Assembly (NCBI GenBank): GCA_964491115.1
Contig: CAZBEW010000004.1
Coordinates: 1-61,416, forward strand
From: an uncultured Pseudomonadales bacterium
Lineage (GTDB): Bacteria > Patescibacteriota > Microgenomatia > UBA1400 > PJMF01
Reading direction: 5' to 3'
Length of the DNA: 61,416 nt
Part shown: positions 47,974 through 59,416 of the stretch, piece after piece
Position numbering within the stretch: position 1 is the first letter of the stretch
Layout of the letters: each line of letters opens with the position of its first letter
Notes under the pieces: generated by a model
Told to the model about the DNA's origin: nothing
The model's input: the letters and a program-made list of their open reading frames with translations, nothing else
Database searches by the model: none
Program-made: the position numbers and the translations under genes

Positions 47974-48939
47974 TTAAAAGCCAAAGAGCTTTAAGATGAT
48001 ATATATTGCATAGAGAGCAATCATTAATATTGATTCTTTGCGCTCAAATTTGTTTTTACTCAATAAAAAGAGCACCGCTATAATCGTCGTAAAGAGCAAG
48101 TAGGGCACATCAAACAAGACCAATTGCCGATTAATTTCCCAACTAGTAATAGTGCCACTTACCCCCAATGCTAAAAAAACATTCAAGATATTGCTGCCAA
48201 TTAAATTGTTTAAAGACAGGGCAGTTGATCCCTTCCTCATGGCCGTAATTGACACCATTAGCTCTGGCAAACTACTGCCCAAACCAACCAAGAGAATACC
48301 AACCAGCACTTCATTAATGCCCAAGGTTTCAGCGATCAACACCCCATTGCTTAAAACCATTTGCGAGGCTTTAAATAAAATTAGCAAGCCTAAAATTAAT
48401 TGGAAGAAACTCAAATAATTAATTTTTTGAATTTTCTTTGTCTTTATTTTTTTATTATTTTTAAAAAGCAGGCTTTGTTTTTTTAAGTTTTGTCGATTTA
48501 AAAAGAGCAAATAAACAAGATAAAAAAGAATTAATAATATTCCGTCTTGTTGATTGATGATGCCATCCTGACCAAGGAAATAAAATATTGTGTTCGACAT
48601 GACCAACATTAACATGTCTAACAATAATTCGCTTTTTTGCAGTTTAATCACTTTTAACAAACCCACAATGCCTAAAATTAAGGCTAAATTGGCCATGCTT
48701 GAGCCAATGACATTACCTATCACTATTGGACTAGAATCGATGCCATTTAATTGGCGAATTGCCCCAGTGACCGCAATAATAATTTCTGGAAAACTTGTCC
48801 CAATTGCCACAATAGTTAAGCCAATAAAACCCTCTGACAAGGCCAGTGATTTGGCAATTTTGATGGCTGCACGCGTGACTATTTCTGCCCCCAGCCACAA
48901 CAAAAACAAAGCAATAAAAAATAGCACAAAATTAGACAT
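47974..48939 (-). CDS. Ca2+/Na+ antiporter (CaCA, YrbG-like)
   Basis: Alpha-1 repeat VAIGTSFPE..GNVIGSSMAN and alpha-2 repeat VGLGSSLPE..NLIGSNILN. Confidence 0.92.
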   Translation of the reverse strand: MSNFVLFFIALFLLWLGAEIVTRAAIKIAKSLALSEGFIGLTIVAIGTSFPEIIIAVTGAIRQLNGIDSSPIVIGNVIGSSMANLALILGIVGLLKVIKLQKSELLLDMLMLVMSNTIFYFLGQDGIINQQDGILLILFYLVYLLFLNRQNLKKQSLLFKNNKKIKTKKIQKINYLSFFQLILGLLILFKASQMVLSNGVLIAETLGINEVLVGILLVGLGSSLPELMVSITAMRKGSTALSLNNLIGSNILNVFLALGVSGTITSWEINRQLVLFDVPYLLFTTIIAVLFLLSKNKFERKESILMIALYAIYIILKLFGF

Positions 48940-48949
48940 TGCTTACATT

Positions 48950-48994
48950 AAAGCAGAAAACCCCATAAGTAATCAAGAGAGGGTGAGCGAGTAA
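48950..48994. repeat. att-like repeat copy A (distal)
   Basis: 31 bp identical to 58574-58604, 40/45 over the extended match; includes a decayed tRNA-Gly 3' end (tgagcgagt). Confidence 0.9.
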
Positions 48995-49156
48995 AGATAG
49001 GTTACTCGAACCCAAACCATTTTTTATGGATGTGTCCAAGCAGTTCTAAGCTACCTTTTTCCCTTGCTAAATCAAGCTAAAAATCTCTCATTTTCTGTAA
49101 TATTTATAGTATAAGTTGGCGTAAACTTGAAAAATTGGCTTTGTCTTGATTCATGC

Positions 49157-49801
49157 CTAAGGTGATACATGATCATCTTGAGTATACTCGTCACCGTTTT
49201 CATTTCTACCCGTAAGTTTATATTTAGTAACTTCTGTAGAATTAGGATTCCTTTTAACACCCTGTTTTATATCATCAAGTTCTGAAGAAGCTAAATCTGC
49301 TAAAACGTCTGGTGGAGTAGAAGGATTATTCGCAGCAATTAATTGTGACCAAGCATTGTAACTTCTACCAGCACTTTCTAACAGTTCAGAAGGGGTATTC
49401 GGATTACACAGGGCAAGTGTTCTTACAATTGGATTCTCATCTCCAACTAATAACTCAAGTGCAAACTGATCTTGAGTATTAGCTGCCTCCTGCCTTTTTT
49501 TATCTACACTCCATTGGCGCATGTTTCTTGCTGTACTTTCAATTGCTCGATCAAGTTCTGATAATAAGTTGTCTGTATCCTCAATAATCCTTTCGGTATG
49601 AGTATCAACTGAAAAATCGCCTTGTTCTTTTCTAGAAGCTAGAGCACTTGAGTTTTCCTCATGAGGTAACTGACTTAGTAGAGAATCAATTTCCGCAAGA
49701 CTCAATGATCCCTGCCTCTCATTAGAACCTGATGTTTTAGACAGAGGCTCTCTGCCGTTATCAGAAATAGTTGCTTCGGTGGGTTGTTGAATTTCGCTCA
49801 T
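49157..49801 (-). CDS. Hypothetical protein with LRV/HEAT-like NPxTP repeats
   Basis: ALCNPNTPSELLE, AANNPSTPPDVLADLA, VKRNPNS at about 24-26 aa spacing. Confidence 0.6.
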   Translation of the reverse strand: MSEIQQPTEATISDNGREPLSKTSGSNERQGSLSLAEIDSLLSQLPHEENSSALASRKEQGDFSVDTHTERIIEDTDNLLSELDRAIESTARNMRQWSVDKKRQEAANTQDQFALELLVGDENPIVRTLALCNPNTPSELLESAGRSYNAWSQLIAANNPSTPPDVLADLASSELDDIKQGVKRNPNSTEVTKYKLTGRNENGDEYTQDDHVSP

Positions 49802-49834
49802 ATCAAATAGTCTCTACATATAGAATAACATTTT

Positions 49835-52800
49835 CTAGTCAAAAGTATCATCAATTTGCTGTTCAATTTTGTCAAAAAATCTTTGAGAAAGCTGTTCTGC
49901 TCTAGGTACAGGAATAGCGTTTGGTCCAAAATGTTCATGTATGGTATCGGCTCCACTTTGTAGTCCTATTCCAGTAATAACCATGTCTCTTCTAAAATTA
50001 TTAATTACCCCAGGAATAGATCCCTCACATACCATACCGTCGGTTAGAAAGAATACAAAATTATAAGAATGAGTAAACTGATCTGCATAATTTTGAAGAC
50101 TTTGGCATGCGGCAGTGAGAATCAACTCATCATTTTGGTTGCAAATAGATGCATCCAGCAATACAACTTTAGCCAAATCCTCCCCTGATATGTCCTGATC
50201 AAATGTCTTAAGAAACCTGTAACCACCTTCTGTAAAAATTAAAACTTCAAACGGTATATCAAGTCTTTTAGTTAATTCAACAAGACCAACTGCCAACTTT
50301 TTTTCAGCTTGAATAACTCCACCTGCGGTTGATCCTGTGTTATCTAAAATAATACTCCAGCAAAATGTTGGTTTTTCTGGATTAAGCTTTCGTTCAAACG
50401 AATTCGGTCTAAGTACAGTTTTACCCTCAAGTGTGCCTAATATATTGCGCTGCCATGCGTTCTGCAATCTTGAACCATGTAATTGATCTTTGGTCACTTG
50501 ATATTCTTGATCAAGATTGAATCTTTCAGTAAAAAAGTCAGTAGCTTCATCAATAAATTCATGAACATCTTCCATATATTCCACATATGTGTCCAAAGCT
50601 TCACCGTCAAGTCCACTGAGCTCTTGGTAATAACTCCTCAAATCGTTCTCTTGAGACTGTTTCACCTTTTCTAATTCTGCAATTTGTGCCCGTTGAGACA
50701 AAATAAGCCGATCTTTTTGCTGCTGAATTAGTTGTTGTGCTACTTCTTCATCAGTTTTTTTGAGACCAAAGTTTCCCTCTTCATTCCGTTCACCAAATTT
50801 ACTACCCAAAGTGTCATTAAGCTCATTTAGTTCATCAAGCATCCTATTACGTCTTGAATATTGAACTCCCTGACCTTCGTTCTGACCGACTCCGCCAGGT
50901 TGTTCTTGTGTACCTGCCTGGATATCTTGTCCTGGTTGAAGATTTCCTTCAGCCATTTGACTTAATTGATCACTCTGGCTGTCTGCCAAAGAGTCTTGTT
51001 GAATTTGTGATTGCCCGTTAGGTTGATCGGAAGTTTGGTTAGACTGACCCATTCTATCGCTAGACTGATCCTTGCTGCCGTTATCAGCGCTTTGTTCTGC
51101 CATCATACCAGCTTCAGTGCTTTGACCACTTTGTTGGTCCAAGTTGCCATTCTCTGAATGTTGACCTTCTGGCTGGTCACCGTCTTGTCGATCTTGGTTT
51201 TCTTGTGCTGATTCTCCCTCAAGTTGTCCTTGATTATCTGGTAGCTCAATTTTTGATGCCTCCCACAAATAGTAGAAGTTTTTAGGGTCATGTTGCCCGA
51301 ATTGATTCAAACGATCGAGATAGATTTGTTCAGCAAATGGAGCACGATCTGTTGCATTCCAGATTACTGGCATACTCCTACGATAAAATTCGCCCCATTC
51401 AATAGCTCCTGGCGGCACGGGGATAGACTTGCTTCCAGATCCTCCTCTATACCAAAACCTACCAATGGGCTTTGGAAGATTAAAATTAACTAAAAATGAA
51501 TCTTGGTTAAGAAGGGAATCGATTCCCAAACCATCCTGCCTTCCTAAGAACTCTGTAGCAGCTTGTTGGCTGTAAATGGAGAATGAAGGCAAATCATACC
51601 CGTGATCCTTCATCTGTCCAATAATCTTATCGGTGAAATTGGGGTTATATTGCTGATATGCATTCATAAGCAATCTCATTACTGATCGATACGTTTTTGA
51701 TGTGTTTTTAGCAAATTCCCTGACATTTTCTAGCGTCTCTAGTTGTTCAGGTGTAAGCTTACTTTCATCAATTCCAAACTCCGTAATGTTGTAAGTCATA
51801 GGCTCTTCATCTTCTTCTGCCACTGCTTTTTCAAGATCTGCTTCGGAAAATTGGTTTGCCACTTCCTGTAGTTGTTCAAGCTCTTCTTTCAGGTTTTGAA
51901 GTTCATTCTTGACTTGTTCACCATCTGTTTTTTGTTGCAGTGTTTCTTGCATCTGCTCTTGCATTTGACTAGCCTGTTGAGCAATCTCCTGCATTGAAGA
52001 TAATTTTTGTTCTTTTGGACTGGCGGGGCGTGCTTGTGCTTTTTCGAGTCGTTTTTGAATTTCTGTAAGTCGATCATTTAACGCTTCAGCTAGCAGGTTT
52101 TCTGCTTGGATTCTTTCAATACGTTCTTGAGGACTTATTTCTTCGCCATGTTTCACACTACTTTGTTCAACATTAGTGTCTGAATCTTGGAGAGTACGGT
52201 TCATTGCTTCGAGTTCTTCAGGTGATATTAGAGAAACAAGTTGGGGAAAAATCCCATCCTTAATCGTACTAGCTTTTCTTCTAGGATTACTTGTTTTTAC
52301 AGCATCATTAATTTGATCTCTTAATTCTGGCGTAATCGCTTCTTTTACTTTCAGACTAGACTTAGTAAGTGCCTCCTCTACGATTTCTGAAGCAATGATT
52401 CCTATCCTCGAGAGTCCTTCCAAAAAGGTAATATCGATTGCTTGTCTAAATGGGGAGCGATCGCCAATTGATGCTACCATCTCTCTCACATTTATCTCGG
52501 TTTCATAAAGCGCACGAAAGTTATCTTGAGGAGTAGAACTATGACTGTTCTTCATCTCTAAATAATCAACTGATGGGCTGTGAATTGCTTGAGCTAAGGC
52601 CGTTGCAATTTGTGGTGGTAAATCCTGATCTTTTGCCCAGCTACTTAATTCGGACAGGTATCTTTCAAACGGATAATTGAGGTTGCCTATTTCGTGCCGT
52701 AAACGGGCATTAACAACTCGCAGGTCAGTTTTTGCTAAATAACCCTCAGGATAGGTAATAACATTGGGAACACCATATACATTGTCTTGAGTCATGCCCA

Positions 52801-52984
52801 CCGACCACTCGTCTCCGGCAACGGCGTGAAGCTGAATTTTTCCACGCAAACCTCTATCTTCAATCTCCTGAGTAAATCCATGAGCAAGAATTGGAATTAA
52901 TTCGTCAACTTGGCGAGTTAAGTCGGTTAAATCTCTTTCAGGTTTTTTGGCTTCTTCTACACGTGCTGTCTGAATTTCTGTCAT
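49835..52984 (-). CDS. Large vWA-domain protein (CobT-like architecture)
   Basis: C-terminal IILDNTGST (MIDAS-like) and FFLTDG; Q/S/D-rich linker; coiled coil; N-terminal RHEIGN. Confidence 0.8.
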   Translation of the reverse strand: MTEIQTARVEEAKKPERDLTDLTRQVDELIPILAHGFTQEIEDRGLRGKIQLHAVAGDEWSVGMTQDNVYGVPNVITYPEGYLAKTDLRVVNARLRHEIGNLNYPFERYLSELSSWAKDQDLPPQIATALAQAIHSPSVDYLEMKNSHSSTPQDNFRALYETEINVREMVASIGDRSPFRQAIDITFLEGLSRIGIIASEIVEEALTKSSLKVKEAITPELRDQINDAVKTSNPRRKASTIKDGIFPQLVSLISPEELEAMNRTLQDSDTNVEQSSVKHGEEISPQERIERIQAENLLAEALNDRLTEIQKRLEKAQARPASPKEQKLSSMQEIAQQASQMQEQMQETLQQKTDGEQVKNELQNLKEELEQLQEVANQFSEADLEKAVAEEDEEPMTYNITEFGIDESKLTPEQLETLENVREFAKNTSKTYRSVMRLLMNAYQQYNPNFTDKIIGQMKDHGYDLPSFSIYSQQAATEFLGRQDGLGIDSLLNQDSFLVNFNLPKPIGRFWYRGGSGSKSIPVPPGAIEWGEFYRRSMPVIWNATDRAPFAEQIYLDRLNQFGQHDPKNFYYLWEASKIELPDNQGQLEGESAQENQDRQDGDQPEGQHSENGNLDQQSGQSTEAGMMAEQSADNGSKDQSSDRMGQSNQTSDQPNGQSQIQQDSLADSQSDQLSQMAEGNLQPGQDIQAGTQEQPGGVGQNEGQGVQYSRRNRMLDELNELNDTLGSKFGERNEEGNFGLKKTDEEVAQQLIQQQKDRLILSQRAQIAELEKVKQSQENDLRSYYQELSGLDGEALDTYVEYMEDVHEFIDEATDFFTERFNLDQEYQVTKDQLHGSRLQNAWQRNILGTLEGKTVLRPNSFERKLNPEKPTFCWSIILDNTGSTAGGVIQAEKKLAVGLVELTKRLDIPFEVLIFTEGGYRFLKTFDQDISGEDLAKVVLLDASICNQNDELILTAACQSLQNYADQFTHSYNFVFFLTDGMVCEGSIPGVINNFRRDMVITGIGLQSGADTIHEHFGPNAIPVPRAEQLSQRFFDKIEQQIDDTFD

Positions 52985-53006
52985 ACATATAAGTTGCTTT
53001 AACTAT

Positions 53007-54974
53007 TTATACCCTAATTTGTTCGGCCAATATGGTATTTAGTGCCTGGGTATCTATCTGACCTTTTTTGTAAGTTAATGTATGTGGAAGGTAGGTTAAT
53101 GCAATAGAGTACGCTGCAGCATTCCAGCCAGCTTTATAATTTGGCATTGAACGTAAATCGGCAGCCCACAAGTGATTCTCAGAGTAGAATTTAGCCGCTT
53201 CAATGGAACCTCTTAGGGAAATATCACGCTCCATACGAACGTCGCCAGTCCTTGTTTTCTTGGCGCGTACTGTTTCTCTAGTCTTATTGGCAATAAAAAT
53301 AATACTCTTAAGGTCTTGAATGACACGAACTAGTTCAGGATCAACAATTATGTCACTACGTTCATTGTTAACCACTTTATGCCACATCTTGATAAACTCA
53401 TCATCGGGTATATCTACAAGAGGAGTTATCTGCGCCTTTAATATCAACGCTTCGTCATGAGTGAATCGTTCATTACCAGTGTATGGATCTTTCTCCCTAA
53501 GTGGAGGATATCCAATTTGCATTGCGTTACTTCTATCATCAATTGTCTCTGGCAAGTTTTGAACACCTTCATAATCTGCAGGATTCATAAGTCCAACAAT
53601 TGCCACGCCAGGAGCAGACTCAATTACTTCATTGTTTAAGAAAATAGCCCTGTCATGATCAAGTAGAGAATTAAAGAATTTTGACACTGCTGGATTTAGT
53701 AGGTTTACTTCATCAAACTCTAATAGTGAATTGGGAGTTGTAATAGCTGTAATAATTCTTGAAGGTATTTTTACTACTTCACCATCTTTTAAAATTATGT
53801 CATACGTCAAATCATATTCAGTCTTATCTGGAGAGCATGCATATCTAAACAGTGGTCGCTGTGATAGAGCAGCGTAATGCTCAGTAAGCTGATTCTTGCC
53901 AGTACCTCTTGGGCCAACAATTACAGTCATTCCTTTTGCTTTGAGCTTTGTCCACTCAGGGGATTGACCTGTTTCAACAAGCCTTTCTAATTCTCGATTA
54001 TTTCCCAATCCTATCTGACGATTAACCAATTGAGCAAACCAAGCCATACGCTCCTCAAAGTATGGAGTCATCTTGAAGTGGGGGTCAATCTTAGGTATAT
54101 GACCATTACCATCAACATCCATTTCTTGTAAAAACGTACGTGTGGAAATAATCTCAGCAACTCTTTGACCAAACCCTTCCAAATCATCAACTTTGTGTTT
54201 ACTAACATCTACAATTCCCTCAAGATTACCTAATGCTAATTGACCAATTTGATTTGCTAATTGGGTGGCTCGCTGGTCGTATTCGGCTAAATCGGGGTTT
54301 AGCTGTTCATATTCAGTCTGTAAGCGAGATAACTCCCCAATCACTTCGTTAAAAGCTCTTAACTCACTTGAGCCTTCTAAGACGTTATCAATGGCTGGGA
54401 GACGCTCGCCCTGTCGTTCTCCCCAAGTGATCACATCACCAGGGCCAATTGTGTCTGGTAAACCATACTGCCTTTTCTTTTCGAAGAAAACATCTGACCA
54501 CTTTCTTCCACCATCAACATATAATTTCCCAGCGATAGCTTCCCATTCAGATTTATCTCTTGGTGGTTGGCAAACGGGAATCTTGGCTGCTCCAACTGTA
54601 ATATAGGGTAATCTATCAGCATTAGATATTTCTCCAGAACCTTCTTCATTAATGACTTCTTGTAAAACATCTGGACCACCAGCTCTTTCTACTTCATCTC
54701 TTAATCTTTCAAGCTCCTCTTTTATAAGACCCATTTGATTCTCTAGGGTGGTTATAAAATCAGCCTTGCTTCTCCCGTCTGTTGAAGTCCATGTGTCAGA
54801 AAGCTTGCGGGCTCTGGTTAAGCCTTCAGATAATTTAGTGTATTTACTTTGAAGCAAATCAAAAGGAGACTGCGCTATTTCCGCATCTTCACCCTCAATT
54901 TTAGGCACAGGAACAACTTGTTCAGTTAGTTCTGATACTTTTGGCTCACTATAGATTCCAGTTATTTCAGACAT
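53007..54974 (-). CDS. MoxR/AAA_5-type AAA+ ATPase with long N-terminal extension
   Basis: Walker A GPRGTGKN (53892-53915), Walker B LLEFDEVN, sensor I GLMNP, IDDRS, lid ISLRG. Confidence 0.88.
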   Translation of the reverse strand: MSEITGIYSEPKVSELTEQVVPVPKIEGEDAEIAQSPFDLLQSKYTKLSEGLTRARKLSDTWTSTDGRSKADFITTLENQMGLIKEELERLRDEVERAGGPDVLQEVINEEGSGEISNADRLPYITVGAAKIPVCQPPRDKSEWEAIAGKLYVDGGRKWSDVFFEKKRQYGLPDTIGPGDVITWGERQGERLPAIDNVLEGSSELRAFNEVIGELSRLQTEYEQLNPDLAEYDQRATQLANQIGQLALGNLEGIVDVSKHKVDDLEGFGQRVAEIISTRTFLQEMDVDGNGHIPKIDPHFKMTPYFEERMAWFAQLVNRQIGLGNNRELERLVETGQSPEWTKLKAKGMTVIVGPRGTGKNQLTEHYAALSQRPLFRYACSPDKTEYDLTYDIILKDGEVVKIPSRIITAITTPNSLLEFDEVNLLNPAVSKFFNSLLDHDRAIFLNNEVIESAPGVAIVGLMNPADYEGVQNLPETIDDRSNAMQIGYPPLREKDPYTGNERFTHDEALILKAQITPLVDIPDDEFIKMWHKVVNNERSDIIVDPELVRVIQDLKSIIFIANKTRETVRAKKTRTGDVRMERDISLRGSIEAAKFYSENHLWAADLRSMPNYKAGWNAAAYSIALTYLPHTLTYKKGQIDTQALNTILAEQIRV

Positions 54975-54980
54975 ATAAGT

Positions 54981-55385
54981 TTATGTTTGCTCAACAACTC
55001 TTTTTAATTCTTGTAAAAAATTTTCTACCATCTCTGATGCCTTATCTGAGTAATGCACAATAAGCACTTTATCTTGAGGCACAACTCTCAGATGACCCTC
55101 ATATCCAGGCACACCAAACAACCATCTCCCTAAAGTGTCAACTCTGATTATTTCACCGTTCTTATCGACCCCATATCCATCGCTCTGTATTTCCGTCTGA
55201 TAGGAAGGTAACTTTCTGGCTTTTTCATGAAGATAAATGCTGGCTGTCACACCTAGCGACTTTGGAGCCTGAATCGCAAGTGTTTTGTTTAGCGGTTGTA
55301 GCTTCATAGGGAAGTATATTTTTTCCATAGTGTTCTCACAGAAATTATCTCTTTCCATTATTACTATTTCTTTGCATAAAAACAA
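54981..55385 (-). CDS. Small hypothetical protein in the MoxR-vWA operon
   Basis: Fills the gap between the 1012-aa gene and the ATPase; stop 6 nt before the ATPase ATG. Start uncertain (55385, 55358 or 55328). Confidence 0.65.
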   Translation of the reverse strand: MFLCKEIVIMERDNFCENTMEKIYFPMKLQPLNKTLAIQAPKSLGVTASIYLHEKARKLPSYQTEIQSDGYGVDKNGEIIRVDTLGRWLFGVPGYEGHLRVVPQDKVLIVHYSDKASEMVENFLQELKRVVEQT

Positions 55386-55454
55386 GGTTAAAACACTACA
55401 AACAATAGGTAGGAAAGTTTGGTGTAAATATTGAAGACTTGCTCAAAAAATAAG

Positions 55455-58400
55455 TTATTTATCAATCTCTGATATTAGTGATGACAGTAGAAAAGGATAT
55501 TGAATGATTTCTTCAACGCTAAACCCAGCCCCAACAACCTGTTCTGCTAATTTTTCACCATTTTTGTGTCTGGCCATAATTGAAATAATTTCTGGTTTTT
55601 CTGGAATGCCTAATCGCTGAAGAGTGTTATTACTTACAACATTAAGAGCATCATACAAACTAACATCGTTCTCGACTAAATACAGTGTGGTGTCAAATCC
55701 AAAACGTTCAATTGCTCTTGTTACTCTGTAAGTGTCATTTTTTGCCAACATGCTCAATTGCTCGAATGTGTAGCTAATCGACTTGCCTTCAAGTGTTTTT
55801 CTAACATCTGTGGCACTGCTTAAGCGGACACCATTACCAATAAACCTTTCAATTTCATCCATTGAAAATACTTTCAAAGCTGTGGACAATTCGTATCCTT
55901 GGGTGTTAACCGCAATTTGAACAGTTTCTTTGAAGTCCTTCTTAACTTGATGTTCAATCAAAACTGAGTTGATTTCAGAATAATGACTGTAAGTAACCCC
56001 ATTCCTTAATAAATCTTTTGCCCGATCTAAAGATAGGTGACGCAAAGCATCTGAAAAATTCTCTATGTCCATATCATGATTTATATAGCCAGCAATACTA
56101 ATGACCTCAGAAATTGGTAGGTTGTGACCATACCCTTTTGCGATATCTGCTACTTGAACAGCATATTCTAAAGCTGAGTCAGAGGAAATTAATGACTTAG
56201 TATCATCCAATCCAAATCTGTCTAGTGATTTGCTCAACCATTTACTCAAATCATCATCTCTATAATCTTTAACCTGTCCTGCTAACTCTTGAAGAGCAAC
56301 AGTGGTCAACTCATGTCCATGCTCCCTCATTGTCCGCTTCACTGCAGTAAGAACATATAAATTAAGTCCTTTATCCAAAGATTCTTGAATTTCGCCTATT
56401 GAAAACTCCTTAAGTGCTTTGTGAAGACCTTGATGTCTTTTACCAGCAATGTCTTTAATTACATCTAAGGGAACTTCAACTCCGTTTTGTTTGAGCATTG
56501 ACCCAACCCTGACTAACTTCTGAAGTAGTTCGTGTCCGTATTTTTCTTGTTTTGCTTGTTCGACAATTCTTCTCATCCTGTCAAAATGAACTCTATTTAT
56601 TTCTGTATTACCAAGAAGAATATCAATAATTGACATGGCAATAACGGTTTCTTGGCTTACTCCTCTCTGTAATGCCTTGTGAGCCCTGTTAATAGTCCCT
56701 AGTGGGGTATAATTAATCCAGTCGATAACGCCCTCTAAAGATTGTCCAGTTGAATGGCCGTATTGATCTTTTTCTGATTGAAAAGCAAAGTGTAGGTCAA
56801 CAGCCTTTTGTGCTAGGCTTTTGTGTCTCTCATGTTTTTCTTTAAGAACTTCTTGTTTAGCTTTCAATTCTTCTATTAACTGTTCTGGTGTTCTTGTTCT
56901 CAATCGGTGAGTTTCAGCAAGGTAATTTTCAGAAAGGGTTCTCTCTATCATTTGATGTTGAGCTGTAAGGCTCTCTAACTGTAGGGTTCTTTCTTCTTCG
57001 GGTAATTCTAGACTAAGAATATTTGCTTTCCTTCTTTCAAATCTAGCTATTAGAGCATCTTGTTTTCTTTGAAATTGTTTTTCAGAAAGAGTCAGCTCTT
57101 TCGCAGTATGACTAAGTACCCACTCGTCTCGTTCGGTTTGTTCAGAAGGTAGGTGTTCAAGTTGCCAGTGAATTTTCCGAAGTTCTCTACCATACTGATC
57201 GTCACCTGCTTTTCCTATAAACCGTCCAATATTATGTAAATCTACCCCTCGAATTTTTTGTCTCATTCCGCGCAGCTGCCTTTGAACTGGCTCACCGAGA
57301 CGAGCCCATGCTATAGATTCTCGTAGCCCTTGTGCCTTATCACTAGACATGCTTGAGTATGGGGAACCCTGAGAACGTCCTGTGTTGTTATACTCCATGG
57401 CCTTCGTATACCACTTTGCAGCCAGTAAAACCGCCTCATGCTCTAGCTTTTGAGGGTCTGTTTTAGCTAAATCTTCCATATCTTTTGACCGAGTTACCTC
57501 TCTGTAAGCAGCACGATATACCTCCCTGAGCACTGGGTAAGCCCCAATATTCTCACTTCCGTGATAAATCTCAGAGTGATAACCAAAAAGATTGGGCATA
57601 TGCTCTGTTGAAGCTTTATGCCCCTCATCACTAGAATTGTTTTGTTGATTTTTAACTCTACGCAAAGCAATATCGAATGCTGCTAATTCAGGAGTTCCTT
57701 TCATTTCTGCATACAAAATATTCCTACGCAAACCAGTGGCGATGTTTTCTGGATGAGCGTCTTCTGCTGAAATTGGCTCATCTACTTGAATATATTTACC
57801 TTTGTTATAATCCCATTGTTTATTTGTCCTAATAGCTTTTCCTTCAATAAAATCACGATAGAAATTAAGTTTTTTGGTTAAGTATCTAGTACCAGGCTCC
57901 TCAGAACTTAAAACTGCCAAAGCTGCATCCGCTATTGGCATCCCAGCCAGTAGCTTCAACCTTACTATTTTGTCCTCAGTCTCTAAGTATCTTTCTATAG
58001 ATTGTGGTTCCCTGGGACGATCATCAATGAATTCAAACAAATGACTATATTCTCGCTTTGCTCGATCAACATCCATAACTTCAGAATGTTCCAACTCTCC
58101 TGGTAAAGGTTGATCTCCATATTTGTAATCTATTAGTCCCTGGGTAAGTGCTTCCTGCAAAGTCAATTTTTGATGTCTCTCTCTAGTTTCCGCTGTTTGA
58201 GCTTTTTGTGCTCTTTGCTCCTCATGTTGTGGGTGTTGTCCTCGTCCTATATGTCTTTTTTCCCGCCCTGTAACATGCCCACTATGCTTAATAAAGTCAT
58301 GAGTAGTACGATGAGGTTCTTTGGGTTTTCCTGAAAGAACTGATTTCATTCTTTGCAAGAAGTGAGATAGTGGTGGGGTAGATTCATTCACTTTTTCTTG

Positions 58401-58493
58401 TTCAAGTTCTTGCAAAATATCATCAGTTTCAGGAGACTGCTGTCTTATCTGTTGCTCAAGTTGTGATTGGTTCGGTTCTGAAACTTCGGCCAT
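55455..58493 (-). CDS. Large hypothetical protein with C-terminal ~55-60 aa helical repeats
   Basis: 1012-aa ORF with acidic N-terminus, His-rich patch, coiled coil and about six tandem repeats at 55458-56520. Confidence 0.8.
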   Translation of the reverse strand: MAEVSEPNQSQLEQQIRQQSPETDDILQELEQEKVNESTPPLSHFLQRMKSVLSGKPKEPHRTTHDFIKHSGHVTGREKRHIGRGQHPQHEEQRAQKAQTAETRERHQKLTLQEALTQGLIDYKYGDQPLPGELEHSEVMDVDRAKREYSHLFEFIDDRPREPQSIERYLETEDKIVRLKLLAGMPIADAALAVLSSEEPGTRYLTKKLNFYRDFIEGKAIRTNKQWDYNKGKYIQVDEPISAEDAHPENIATGLRRNILYAEMKGTPELAAFDIALRRVKNQQNNSSDEGHKASTEHMPNLFGYHSEIYHGSENIGAYPVLREVYRAAYREVTRSKDMEDLAKTDPQKLEHEAVLLAAKWYTKAMEYNNTGRSQGSPYSSMSSDKAQGLRESIAWARLGEPVQRQLRGMRQKIRGVDLHNIGRFIGKAGDDQYGRELRKIHWQLEHLPSEQTERDEWVLSHTAKELTLSEKQFQRKQDALIARFERRKANILSLELPEEERTLQLESLTAQHQMIERTLSENYLAETHRLRTRTPEQLIEELKAKQEVLKEKHERHKSLAQKAVDLHFAFQSEKDQYGHSTGQSLEGVIDWINYTPLGTINRAHKALQRGVSQETVIAMSIIDILLGNTEINRVHFDRMRRIVEQAKQEKYGHELLQKLVRVGSMLKQNGVEVPLDVIKDIAGKRHQGLHKALKEFSIGEIQESLDKGLNLYVLTAVKRTMREHGHELTTVALQELAGQVKDYRDDDLSKWLSKSLDRFGLDDTKSLISSDSALEYAVQVADIAKGYGHNLPISEVISIAGYINHDMDIENFSDALRHLSLDRAKDLLRNGVTYSHYSEINSVLIEHQVKKDFKETVQIAVNTQGYELSTALKVFSMDEIERFIGNGVRLSSATDVRKTLEGKSISYTFEQLSMLAKNDTYRVTRAIERFGFDTTLYLVENDVSLYDALNVVSNNTLQRLGIPEKPEIISIMARHKNGEKLAEQVVGAGFSVEEIIQYPFLLSSLISEIDK

Positions 58494-58573
58494 ATTATTA
58501 GTATCTAATAAATCGGTATATTTTACAATTCGTTTTTATAGTAATGTTAAGACGACACACGTAACCATTCCTA

Positions 58574-58618
58574 AAAGCAGAAAACCCCATAAGTAATCAA
58601 GAGAAAATGAGCGGGTGA
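58574..58618. repeat. att-like repeat copy B
   Basis: Matches copy A; its last 23 nt match the tRNA-Gly 3' end and flank (59332-59354) at 21/23. Confidence 0.9.
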
Positions 58619-58691
58619 GAGGGGGAGTATATTAAAAAATATGAAAGTTTAGACTAAAAAAGAGGAATACAACAATTTCCTGCTCACTGTG

Positions 58692-59315
58692 TTATTTGAT
58701 TATTGATTCCAACAGTTCAATTACCTCATTTTCTGCAAGACCAACTGTTTCAATGTCGAAGTTTAAGCCCTGATAACTAAAAGTGGAAATATACATTTCA
58801 TTATAATTTCCTATTTTTACTTCTATTCCTTTTATTTTTGAAACTTCAAGTGGCTCATCACCTAGGAAATAATCTCTTAATGGCTCAAAATCTTTGGAAA
58901 AAGCAACAATGATGTGTTTTTCAATTAAACCATCATTACTTGGCTCACTTTCATAATTCACAACATAATCATGCAATATGTTGTATGGAGCATTTTGATA
59001 ATCTTCCTTGTTTTCATCAAGTTTTTTGGTATATATCAAATATTTTGATTTAATTGTCAAACTACTAGGCACTTTTATATCATCTAGAAAAGTATACTCA
59101 GTAAATCTTTCTTTAACGTTTATATCAGTATCATATTTAATGTCTGCATCTAAATTTGCAGCTGCGATTTCTTTTAGATAATTTATTTTAATTGTATTAG
59201 CAGACGGTGTTGTAAAACTTTTTTCTTTCTTATTTTTAAATACAAATATTCCAGCAATAATTAATAAAAGACATATGGGAATTAAGAAAGATCTAAACCA
59301 TTTATTGTTTTTCAT
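58692..59315 (-). CDS. AT-rich single-TM hypothetical protein (cassette gene)
   Basis: Perfect AGGAGGA SD (59321-59327) before ATG 59315; N-terminal TM; lies between att copy B and the tRNA. Confidence 0.8.
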   Translation of the reverse strand: MKNNKWFRSFLIPICLLLIIAGIFVFKNKKEKSFTTPSANTIKINYLKEIAAANLDADIKYDTDINVKERFTEYTFLDDIKVPSSLTIKSKYLIYTKKLDENKEDYQNAPYNILHDYVVNYESEPSNDGLIEKHIIVAFSKDFEPLRDYFLGDEPLEVSKIKGIEVKIGNYNEMYISTFSYQGLNFDIETVGLAENEVIELLESIIK

Positions 59316-59345
59316 TTTATTCCTCCTTTTTATCAAGAAAAAGTG

Positions 59346-59416
59346 AGCGGGTGACCAGAATCGAACTGGCCTCTTCTCCTTGGAAGGGAGATATACTACC
59401 GATGTACTACACCCGC
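59346..59416 (-). tRNA. tRNA-Gly(TCC)
   Basis: GCGGGTG/CACCCGC acceptor, TCTCC-CTTCCAA-GGAGA, AGTTCGATTCT; CCA not encoded. Confidence 0.95.

What the first reader, a model, noticed from the sequence alone, without database searches (positions are those of the whole stretch)
48950..59354. Three staggered copies of the tRNA-Gly(UCC) 3' end define a tandem, integrase-free cassette array
Seen (+ strand): tRNA end atcaaga-aaaag-tgagcgggtga (59332-59354); copy B atcaaga-gaaaa-tgagcgggtga (58596-58618, 21/23); copy A atcaaga-gaggg-tgagcgagtaa (48972-48994). A and B share a perfect 31 bp (48950-48980 = 58574-58604). They delimit a ~0.74 kb one-gene unit and a ~9.6 kb five-gene unit, neither with a recombinase. 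The distal copy is more decayed. Inference: successive site-specific insertions at the tRNA by a trans-acting integrase, integron-like. The repeat also reads TTGATT-18-TGcTTTAAT toward the antiporter, so it may double as a promoter.
Basis: partly seen in the sequence, partly recalled or inferred. Interest (0 to 1): 0.8.

Follow-up and report, generated by a model that had tools for sequence, protein, structure and literature searches.

The report
Stacked foreign gene blocks behind tRNA-Gly
In a tiny uncultured Patescibacteria (CPR) bacterium, two foreign DNA blocks sit one behind the other after a glycine tRNA gene, each closed by a spare copy of the tRNA's tail plus the neighbour gene's promoter; neither block, nor the genome, encodes a dedicated integrase, and related species have the site empty or filled with other inserts, so this is a real insertion hot spot whose enzyme is still unknown.

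Summary
tRNA-Gly(UCC) lies at 59345-59416 on the minus strand. Its last 10 nt plus 13 nt of flank recur at 58596-58618 (copy B) and 48972-48994 (copy A). A and B share 43 nt, 31 of them perfect, and that 31-mer occurs nowhere else in the 0.8-Mb genome.

Seven species of the same genus settle the reading:
- Four have an empty site, with the tRNA followed about 50 nt later by the antiporter gene.
- One has a 14-nt remnant of unit 1.
- One has a 130-nt structured, gene-less module.
- One has a 480-nt insert.

So these are successive insertions at a hot spot.

Unit 2 (9.6 kb) is a complete, horizontally acquired five-gene MoxR(AAA_5)/vWA-type operon. It is absent from 40 relatives. Elsewhere it occurs inside a conjugative-type element and in another repeat-bracketed block.

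Unit 1 is a 5'-truncated, orphaned anti-sigma-like gene, so it is a decayed remnant.

Copy A is not simply decayed. It differs from B at 5 bases, and 4 of them pair with an inverted copy (49185-49195) across a 214-nt folded tail.

The genome has only two core Xer-like recombinases. Large serine recombinases abutting tRNA genes occur in five of the eight relatives checked, but not in this genome.

"Integron-like" is not supported. The promoter reading is supported by conservation. The mechanism remains inferred.

The parts
59345..59416 (-). tRNA-Gly(UCC), intact; the anchor of the array
   Evidence: ARAGORN. It is 97-100% identical to the tRNA of congeners.
59332..59354 (-). Repeat copy 1: the last 10 nt of the tRNA plus 13 nt of flank (TCACCCGCTCA-CTTTTTCTTGAT in tRNA orientation). 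The flank part differs from copy B at 2 positions.
58619..59331 (-). Unit 1 (713 nt, 27.5% GC). It holds one gene, 58692-59315, of 207 aa with one N-terminal membrane helix. The gene is a 5'-truncated, orphaned member of a family that elsewhere follows an ECF sigma-factor gene by about 2 nt.
   Evidence: The gene is absent from 40 relatives. The 14-nt filler in G004 is its deletion remnant.
58574..58618 (-). Repeat copy B (45 nt): a pseudo tRNA end (TCACCCGCTCA) plus TTT plus the 31-mer carrying the -35 box TTGATT. Its -10 box is altered to TTTTAG at the junction with unit 2.
   Evidence: Its tRNA-like part is 14 of 14 identical to the equivalent copy in G004.
48995..58573 (-). Unit 2 (9579 nt). 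It has an 80-nt leader and five co-oriented genes: 55455-58493 (1012 aa), 54981-55385 (134 aa), 53007-54974 (MoxR-like AAA_5, 655 aa), 49835-52984 (1049 aa, with a C-terminal vWA-like DxSGS/TDG motif) and 49157-49801 (LRV-repeat protein, 214 aa). A structured tail follows.
   Evidence: The same five genes occur in the same order in L021, L024, L026 and L028, and gene tables of L040-L043 show the same size pattern. The AAA_5 gene is absent from 40 relatives. Tetranucleotide distance from the genome ranks 3 of 44.
48982..49195 (-). Structured tail of unit 2 (214 nt). It is closed by an 11-bp stem between X' (49185-49195, GGUGACGAGUA) and the tRNA-like part of copy A (48982-48993, UACUCGCUCACC). 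It starts where the conserved part of the LRV protein ends.
   Evidence: RNA fold z = -2.6, with 0 of 200 shuffles folding as well. DNA fold z = -2.0. X' is the only inverted copy with at most 1 error in the window, with a chance of about 0.001 of falling within 250 nt. The protein tail GRNENGDEYTQDDHVSP is absent from homologues.
48950..48994 (-). Repeat copy A (45 nt): a variant pseudo tRNA end (TTACTCGCTCACCC) plus the 31-mer. This is the working promoter copy in front of the antiporter.
48947..48976 (-). Inferred antiporter promoter: -35 TTGATT (48971-48976), an 18-nt spacer, then an extended -10 TGcTTTAAT (48947-48955). The start codon lies 7 nt after the -10, so the mRNA is probably leaderless.
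   Evidence: Both boxes and the 7-nt distance are conserved in 8 species while the spacer varies. The simple consensus scan does not call this site because TTTAAT lacks A at position 2.
47974..48939 (-). Na+/Ca2+ exchanger-family antiporter gene, the ancestral neighbour of the tRNA
   Evidence: Pfam PF01699, E = 3e-54. It lies directly after the tRNA in G001, G003, G005 and G007.

Best explanation
The roughly 50-nt spacer between tRNA-Gly(UCC) and the leaderless antiporter gene is an insertion hot spot in this Patescibacteria genus. The window carries two foreign segments stacked in tandem.

Each insertion was made by recombination between the chromosomal site and a look-alike site carried by the incoming DNA. 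The chromosomal site is the tRNA 3' end plus the antiporter promoter. Each insertion therefore left a direct repeat of the target, 23 nt for unit 1 and 45 nt for unit 2.

The likely order is as follows. Unit 1 entered first, in the common ancestor of this species and its sister G004. It has since been eroded to a truncated anti-sigma-like gene here and to 14 nt in G004. Unit 2, a complete MoxR/vWA-type five-gene operon with a 214-nt structured tail, entered later at the displaced copy B. It brought its own variant of the site, now the left part of copy A.

The recombinase is not encoded in the units. It was either lost or acted in trans. Candidates are the large serine recombinases that abut tRNA genes in five of the eight relatives checked, or the two core Xer-like enzymes.

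Because the repeat contains the promoter, the antiporter kept a promoter copy after each insertion.

Shown: the repeats, the empty sites, the foreign origin of the cargo, the absence of an integrase, and the element-borne site variant. Inferred: the type of recombination, the enzyme and the order of events.
For: - Repeats are real and locus-specific.
- Empty sites occur in G001, G003, G005 and G007. Other inserts sit at the same point in G002, G004 and G006.
- The G004 state is confirmed in an independent 805-kb metagenome contig.
- The flanks of G000 and G004 are collinear at 93.8% identity over 11.95 kb.
- The cargo is foreign. The AAA_5 gene and the unit-1 gene are absent from 40 relatives, and composition is atypical.
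- All five unit-2 genes recur in the same order in four other CPR loci, including one beside T4SS, relaxase and large serine recombinase genes; four further loci show the same gene-size pattern around the AAA_5 homologue.
- The left part of copy A differs at 5 of 14 positions from both B and G004, while B equals G004 at 14 of 14. At 6% divergence I calculate the chance of that at about 0.002.
- Four of those 5 bases pair with X', so the variant arrived with the element, as an attP-type site would.
- Unit 1 is truncated and orphaned, and the G004 filler matches its two ends. This shows ongoing decay, as in the published three-step accretion model (PMC5704250).
- Large serine recombinases lie convergent to tRNA-Ser, tRNA-Asn and tRNA-Trp genes in G002, G005, G006, G007 and G017.
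Against: - No integrase is present in either unit. The 95%-complete genome has only two Xer-like genes, and both are conserved in every relative checked, so they are core genes. The third PF00589 hit lies on a 63% GC contaminant contig.
- The repeat lengths at this one site differ: about 2, 11, 23 and 45 nt. The repeats start only 10-11 nt inside the tRNA and run far into species-specific flank. This is unlike the usual tRNA-regenerating att sites.
- The 31 nt shared by A and B include a spacer that differs even from the sister species. The incoming site must therefore have come from this same species or been homogenised afterwards.
- No free or circular form and no second genome with unit 2 at this site was found.
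Confidence: 0.55

Rival explanations
1. Target-mimic cassette mechanism. Unit 2 enters as a single strand, by conjugation or DNA uptake. Its tail folds so that X' pairs with X2 and presents a double-stranded replica of the target. A host enzyme, the Xer-like pair or an unknown one, then recombines it with the chromosomal site. This would resemble CTXphi attP(+) or integron attC. The gene-less structured modules behind tRNA genes in relatives would be the minimal form of the same system.
For: - The X':X2 stem shows 4 element-specific compensating bases, and the tail folds better than shuffles.
- The tail is not part of the conserved cargo.
- There is no dedicated integrase in the genome.
- At this same site G002 carries a 130-nt gene-less module. 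It recurs behind tRNA-Gly(UCC), Gly(GCC), Pro(GGG) and Ser(GCT) of G017, and each copy ends in a copy, exact or near-exact, of its own tRNA's 3' end. Paired cells reach 93.8% against about 51% in slid controls, and the module has no Rfam match.
- Earlier notes of this scan describe such modules, but those are unverified leads.
Against: - The tail of unit 2 has no sequence relative in 400 genomes of the phylum and does not match the R1 model.
- Unit 1 has no convincing inverted copy.
- This genome has no other tRNA-end module.
- The stem is only 11 bp and does not cover the 31-mer, where the crossover must lie.
- X' was found after looking for it.
- The site is not dif-like.
Confidence: 0.18
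2. RecA-type (Campbell-like) integration, or local rearrangement. A circular or taken-up DNA from a strain of the same species carried a 31-45-nt stretch of the tRNA-antiporter spacer. It recombined by ordinary homology and duplicated that stretch.
For: - A and B are perfectly identical over 31 nt, including a spacer that differs even from the sister species G004.
- Repeat lengths vary at this one site.
- The homologous operon in L024 lies in a 12.2-kb block bracketed by a 77-nt direct repeat (76 of 77 identical) that is not a tRNA end and has no integrase.
Against: - This does not explain how foreign DNA first acquired the host spacer.
- It does not explain why inserts of unrelated origin all land exactly at the tRNA end.
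- It does not explain the element-specific variant paired with X'.
- 31 nt is short for RecA-dependent recombination; this last point is general knowledge, not tested here.
Confidence: 0.12
3. Assembly artefact. The real molecules are a chromosome without unit 2 and a separate circular unit 2 carrying one copy of the 31-mer. The assembler threaded the circle into the chromosome at the shared 31-mer.
For: - The genome is a 38-contig metagenome bin with contaminant contigs.
- The shared stretch is exactly 31 nt, a common assembler word length.
- A scaffold gap starts just after the window, at 61417.
Against: - Both junctions lie in contiguous sequence.
- Even under this reading unit 2 would carry a matching attachment site, so the biology would change little.
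- A 9.6-kb circle with no replication gene is unlikely to persist.
Confidence: 0.07
4. A true integron-type cassette array.
For: The units are co-oriented, and unit 1 starts 30 nt after the tRNA end without a promoter of its own.
Against: - There is no integron integrase. The best hits to integron-integrase models reach 111 and 70 bits against a cut-off of 265.
- There are no attC-like imperfect palindromes at the unit ends.
- The repeats are copies of the target, not of cassette sites.
Confidence: 0.02

Closest known systems
CIMEs (cis-mobilizable elements) and tandem accretion of islands at gene 3' ends (ICESt1/ICESt3 family and streptococcal IMEs; review PMC5704250)
   Same: The elements keep attL and attR but have no integration or transfer genes. 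They are stacked in tandem because a newcomer used an att copy of a resident element. There is decay by deletion, seen here in unit 1 and the G004 remnant.
   Different: No related autonomous element with the same site specificity was found. The repeats extend well beyond the target gene into the next gene's promoter. The phylum (CPR) has no described examples in the library searched.
tRNA-gene genomic islands with a displaced tRNA 3' fragment (classical tyrosine-integrase islands; from my own knowledge)
   Same: The tRNA is intact and direct copies of its 3' end mark the distal island ends. The site is a hot spot with varied cargo.
   Different: There is no integrase. Only 10-11 nt of the tRNA are duplicated, and the rest of the repeat is flank.
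Large-serine-recombinase islands abutting tRNA genes in Patescibacteria
   Same: Same genus and the same kind of target (tRNA 3' ends). These are the only dedicated integrases seen in the genus.
   Different: None lies at tRNA-Gly(UCC) in the loci fetched. None is present in this genome. Their att repeats were not resolved here.
CTXphi-type IMEX elements and integron attC sites (folded single-strand recombination sites; from my own knowledge)
   Same: An inverted and a direct copy of a target-like sequence lie at one end of an integrase-less element. The host has only Xer-like recombinases.
   Different: The site is not dif-like. The stem is short, and no integron integrase is present. This is a mechanistic resemblance only, and it is untested.
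MoxR AAA+/vWA conflict systems (PMC7159879), as a comparison for the cargo of unit 2
   Same: A MoxR-like AAA_5 ATPase sits next to a large protein with a vWA-type DxSGS...TDG motif. The distribution is patchy and often associated with mobile elements.
   Different: The other three genes have no recognised domains except LRV repeats. No effector domain was identified. There is no PADLOC hit above noise, and the function is untested.

Membership tests
Integron (cassette array) | Integron integrase (IntI) next to the array | tested here: not met
   Only two Xer-like recombinases are present, on other contigs. Their scores against integron-integrase models are 111 and 70 bits against a cut-off of 265.
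Integron (cassette array) | Each cassette ends in an attC imperfect palindrome | tested here: not met
   The unit ends are direct copies of the target. No comparable inverted-repeat site is present at both unit ends.
CIME / tandem accretion at a gene 3' end | The element is bounded by direct att repeats derived from the target's 3' end | tested here: met
   The repeats are 23 nt and 45 nt and include the last 10-11 nt of tRNA-Gly.
CIME / tandem accretion at a gene 3' end | No integration or transfer genes inside the element | tested here: met
   Pfam, NCBIfam and PADLOC scans of all six proteins found none.
CIME / tandem accretion at a gene 3' end | A related autonomous element with the same att specificity exists, and excision or mobilisation can be shown | tested here: inconclusive
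   The homologous operon lies beside T4SS, relaxase and serine recombinase genes in L021, but that element's att site is unknown.
Classical tRNA-integrating genomic island | An integrase gene inside the island, next to an att site | tested here: not met
   Only 80 nt and 162 nt of non-coding DNA lie at the ends of unit 2. Unit 1 holds one non-recombinase gene.
IMEX (element integrated by host XerCD) | Integration into a dif-like 28-bp site with two inverted 11-bp arms | tested here: not met
   The 45-mer has no such inverted arms, judged by reading the sequence. The true dif site of this genome was not located.
Structured tRNA-end module (R1 type, seen in G002 and G017; undescribed) | A match to the conserved core (CGACGG-hairpin-CCTAGT-hairpin) between tRNA-derived arms | tested here: not met
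   The R1 model finds nothing in the window at E <= 1 and nothing in the own genome.
MoxR-vWA system (cargo of unit 2) | A MoxR-type AAA+ ATPase | tested here: met
   PF07728, E = 2.4e-17. NorQ/CbbQ structures match at 7e-11 to 8e-5.
MoxR-vWA system (cargo of unit 2) | A partner protein with a vWA domain (MIDAS motif) | tested here: inconclusive
   D-x-[ST]-G-S (DNTGS here, DNSGS in three homologues) and TDG are conserved in five homologues, and CobT matches are weak. The AlphaFold model had pLDDT 44, too poor for a fold search.

The most novel reading that the evidence does not exclude
Patescibacteria may possess a way of inserting DNA at tRNA 3' ends that needs no element-encoded integrase. 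The incoming unit would carry a folded tail in which an antisense copy pairs with a sense copy of the target, and a host enzyme would do the joining. Unit 2 would be a gene-carrying example, delivering a whole five-gene operon. The 130-nt gene-less module at the same site in G002, and behind four or five tRNA genes of G017, would be the minimal form.
Probability: 0.18. Interest if true: 0.85.

Novelty: new variant of a known kind. Interest (0 to 1): 0.55.

Why it matters
Candidate-phyla-radiation bacteria have tiny genomes and few recognisable mobile-element enzymes, yet they clearly exchange genes. This locus gives a clean, comparable series at one site: empty, a 14-nt scar, a 130-nt module, a 480-nt insert, a one-gene remnant and a five-gene operon. 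That series shows both how such genomes gain operons and how they erode them again. If the recombinase proves to be a host enzyme or a helper element acting in trans on a target-mimicking tail, it would explain how integrase-less cassettes spread in this phylum. It would also give a simple rule for finding them. The cargo, a conserved but uncharacterised MoxR/vWA-type operon that also rides on a conjugative-type element, is a candidate conflict or defence system worth testing.

Tried and rejected

2. A third tyrosine recombinase on C19: rejected, because that contig has 63% GC and is a contaminant.

3. Partial tRNA or known RNA families at the unit ends: only noise was found. The GTTCGAG near copy A is probably chance.

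4. Relatives of the unit-2 tail: none in 400 genomes of the phylum, none in viral contigs, and no look-alike in earlier notes of this scan.

5. tRNA-Gly-like att sequences near homologous operons in eight other loci: none found for the four loci searched for the motif; none of the eight has a tRNA-Gly gene.

6. Terminal inverted repeats of unit 1 (18 nt, 89% complementary): judged to be chance in AT-rich DNA.

7. An inverted copy for unit 1: only a 7-bp stem, z = -1.6, so it was not counted.

8. Structure of the vWA-like domain: pLDDT 44, so no fold search was run.

9. Profile searches of the 1012-aa and 1049-aa proteins against solved structures: nothing significant.

10. The consensus promoter scan does not call the TTGATT-18-TTTAAT site. 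The promoter inference therefore rests on conservation only.

11. Displaced tRNA-Gly ends in other genera of the order: no copy of the 12-nt end with at most 1 mismatch in the 14 loci where tRNA-Gly(UCC) was called, although several carry structured modules.

Full report
**Observation**

tRNA-Gly(UCC) lies at 59345-59416 on the minus strand. There are three 23-nt copies at 48972-94 (A), 58596-618 (B) and 59332-54 (the tRNA end), with spacings of 9624 and 736. There is also a 43-nt A/B pair at 91% identity that contains a perfect 31-mer. The 31-mer, allowing up to three mismatches, occurs only at these two places in the whole 798,531-bp, 38-contig assembly. No other tRNA of the genome has a displaced copy of its end. 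One correction is needed: only the last 10 nt of the tRNA are inside the repeat, and the rest is downstream flank.

**Organism**

Homologue names (Magasanikbacteria, Parcubacteria, Woesebacteria) and the title of the sister genome ("Candidatus Paceibacterota bacterium") place the window in Patescibacteria (CPR). The bin is 95% complete. It contains a few high-GC contaminant contigs.

**Comparison with relatives (the key result)**

Read in tRNA orientation, four species of the same genus (G001, G003, G005, G007) have the tRNA followed directly by yyyTCTCTTGATTA, an 11-nt variable spacer, TTTCTGCTTTAATG, 6 nt and then the antiporter start codon. That is the empty site.

- G004, the sister species, has flanks 93.8% identical over 11.95 kb. 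Its order is tRNA end, a 14-nt filler, a second copy TCACCCGCTCA, the promoter and the antiporter. The same arrangement occurs in an independent 805-kb metagenome contig. The filler (ACTTTCTT+CCCTTC) matches the two ends of unit 1 (ACTTTTTCTT...CCCCTC). G004 therefore carries a deletion scar of unit 1.
- G002 has a 130-nt gene-less insert ending in a copy of the tRNA end.
- G006 has a 480-nt insert with a small gene and no repeat.

**Promoter**

The blocks CTCTTGATT and TTTCTGCTTTAATG are conserved in all eight species, while the spacer between them varies. The start codon always lies 7 nt after TTTAAT. This is the pattern expected for a -35 box and an extended -10 box driving a leaderless mRNA. 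The simple consensus scan does not call the site, so this is an inference from conservation. In copy B the -10 is changed to TTTTAG at the junction with unit 2.

**Unit 2 (48995-58573)**

Its five genes encode:
- a 1012-aa protein;
- a 134-aa protein;
- a MoxR-like AAA_5 ATPase (PF07728, E = 2.4e-17; NorQ/CbbQ structures match);
- a 1049-aa protein whose C-terminus has conserved D-x-[ST]-G-S and TDG motifs typical of vWA domains, although the structure model was too poor to confirm this;
- an LRV-repeat protein.

All five have homologues in the same order in four other metagenomic or CPR contigs, and four further contigs show the same gene-size pattern around the AAA_5 homologue, in varied neighbourhoods. 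In L021 the operon sits between T4SS genes (VirB4-like, TrbL, TrbC), a coupling protein, a relaxase and a large serine recombinase. In L024 it lies in a 12.2-kb block bracketed by a 77-nt direct repeat (76 of 77 identical) with no integrase. The ATPase gene is absent from all 40 relatives searched. The unit's tetranucleotide composition ranks 3 of 44 for distance from the genome. Unit 2 is a horizontally acquired, complete operon, possibly a MoxR-vWA type conflict system (PMC7159879; function untested).

**Unit 1 (58619-59331)**

It holds one 207-aa gene and has 27.5% GC. Homologues are 36-55% identical. In the two contexts I read, the homologue follows an ECF-type sigma-factor gene by about 2 nt. 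They also carry about 43 extra N-terminal residues that the window's protein lacks. Unit 1 is therefore a truncated, orphaned anti-sigma-like gene, a decayed remnant rather than an intact cassette.

**The repeats are not simple target duplications**

The tRNA-like part of copy B (TCACCCGCTCATTT) is identical to that of G004. Copy A (TTACTCGCTCACCC) differs at 5 of 14 positions from both, yet the adjoining 31 nt are identical. At about 6% divergence, five changes in 14 nt have a probability of about 0.002 by my arithmetic.

Inside unit 2, 190 nt from copy A, lies an inverted copy X' (49185-49195). The 227-nt stretch folds with an 11-bp closing stem between X' and A. The fold z-score is -2.6 as RNA, with 0 of 200 shuffles folding as well, and -2.0 as DNA. 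Four of the five A-specific bases are Watson-Crick paired in that stem. With B-type bases, two of them would mismatch and two would wobble. X' is the only inverted copy with at most one error in the 61-kb window, and the genome-wide rate gives about 0.001 for one falling within 250 nt. X' lies in a 17-residue tail of the LRV protein that homologues lack, so the 214-nt tail is not part of the cargo.

I conclude that the A variant arrived with unit 2, as the element's own attachment-site arm, and that the crossover lay in or at the edge of the 31-mer. I searched for X' after earlier notes of this scan prompted the idea, so its weight should be discounted somewhat.

**Recombinases**

The genome has three PF00589 hits. 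One is on a 63% GC contaminant contig. The other two are Xer-like and conserved in every relative checked, at 89-99% identity within the genus, so they are core genes. There is no serine recombinase in this genome.

Large serine recombinases of 434-584 aa occur in G002, G005, G006, G007 and G017, but not in G000, G004, G001 or G003. Most of those fetched lie convergent to a tRNA gene (Ser, Asn or Trp), 1-2.5 kb away. Such elements are therefore the genus's visible tRNA-targeting integrases and plausible helpers. None is at tRNA-Gly(UCC).

**A related phenomenon at the same site**

The 130-nt insert of G002 is homologous to the sequence behind tRNA-Gly(UCC) of G017. A covariance model built from the two finds further copies in G017 directly behind tRNA-Gly(GCC), tRNA-Pro(GGG) and tRNA-Ser(GCT), with a weaker match near tRNA-Met. 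Each copy has this layout:
- a terminator hairpin;
- a piece of its own tRNA's T-arm;
- a conserved core (CGACGG, a hairpin, CCTAGT, a hairpin);
- a copy, exact or near-exact, of its own tRNA's 3' end.

Paired cells reach 93.8% against about 51% in slid controls, with the caveat that the alignment was fitted to the model. Rfam has no match. The window and its genome have no copy. This confirms, for one relative, earlier notes of this scan about structured modules behind CPR tRNA genes. It keeps open a target-mimic mechanism but does not show it for the window.

**Mechanism**

[quoted passage not shown] Unit 1 would be a decayed older insert and unit 2 a later one at the displaced site. This is the CIME/accretion model known from streptococcal elements (PMC5704250).

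The rivals are:
- a folded-strand, target-mimic mechanism using host enzymes (0.18);
- homology-driven Campbell-type integration (0.12);
- an assembly artefact at the 31-mer (0.07);
- a true integron (0.02).

Points against the main reading are the absence of any integrase, the different repeat lengths at one site, and the 31-nt identity in a species-specific spacer.

The papers library held nothing on such elements in Patescibacteria.

**Verdict**

This is a real and well-delimited insertion hot spot carrying integrase-less stacked units. It is a new variant of a known kind (tRNA-linked islands, CIME accretion). Its unusual features make it a good test case for how CPR genomes acquire DNA.

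Noticed in passing
L063 1501-1650 (G002); L062 1501-1650; L066 1501-1672; L067 1501-1651; L068 1501-1646 (all G017): A structured, gene-less module of about 130-170 nt lies directly behind tRNA-Gly(UCC), Gly(GCC), Pro(GGG) and Ser(GCT). Its layout is a terminator hairpin, a piece of that tRNA's T-arm, a conserved core (CGACGG-hairpin-CCTAGT-hairpin) and a copy, exact or near-exact, of that tRNA's own 3' end. It shows compensatory changes and has no Rfam match. It is present in G002 but absent from four congeners at the same site.
   Followed up: partly
L071-L080 (G002, G005, G006, G007, G017): Large serine recombinase genes (434-584 aa) lie convergent to, and 1-2.5 kb from, tRNA-Ser(GCT), Ser(GGA), Asn and Trp genes in most loci fetched. 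These look like tRNA-targeting serine-integrase islands. None is present in the window's genome or in G004.
   Followed up: partly
L024 4200-4276 and 16427-16503: A 77-nt direct repeat (76 of 77 identical) brackets a 12.2-kb block holding the homologous MoxR/vWA operon. The block has no integrase, and the repeat is not a tRNA end. Just inside the left copy is what reads like a fragment of a type I restriction methylase gene.
   Followed up: partly
L021 1-22040 (also L022, L023): The homologous five-gene operon (AAA_5 protein 74% identical) sits among VirB4-like, TrbL, TrbC, coupling-protein, relaxase and large serine recombinase genes. This looks like a conjugative element of a CPR-type organism.
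   Followed up: no
window 48937-48955, and the same place in L014-L020: The antiporter start codon lies 7 nt after the conserved -10 box in all eight species, so the mRNA is probably leaderless.
   Followed up: partly
G000 contig C23, 1640-1657 (outside the window): A 16-nt stretch, GGTCACCCGCTCATTT, matches the tRNA-Gly end and copy B. It lies inside a miaA-like housekeeping gene. It is probably chance, but it is unexpected at this length.
   Followed up: no
G000 contigs C19, C27 and C33 (outside the window): These contigs have 60-68% GC in a 37% GC bin, so they are contaminants. C19 carries the third Phage_integrase hit and should not be counted for this organism.
   Followed up: yes
L020 9765-10244 (G006): A 480-nt insert sits at the same tRNA-antiporter site. 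It has a small membrane-protein gene on the opposite strand and a GC-rich terminator hairpin, and no copy of the tRNA end.
   Followed up: no
L049 (G013) and L058 (G035), first ~100 nt after tRNA-Gly(UCC): Two genomes of different families share another conserved stretch, ATTGCGGGCAGGCAAGG..GGGTTCGA, behind tRNA-Gly(UCC). In L058 it ends in a T-arm plus a variant copy of the acceptor end. This is possibly a second module family.
   Followed up: no
window 61416 / contig C4 61417-61516: A 100-N scaffold gap starts right after the window's end, 2 kb from the tRNA.
   Followed up: no
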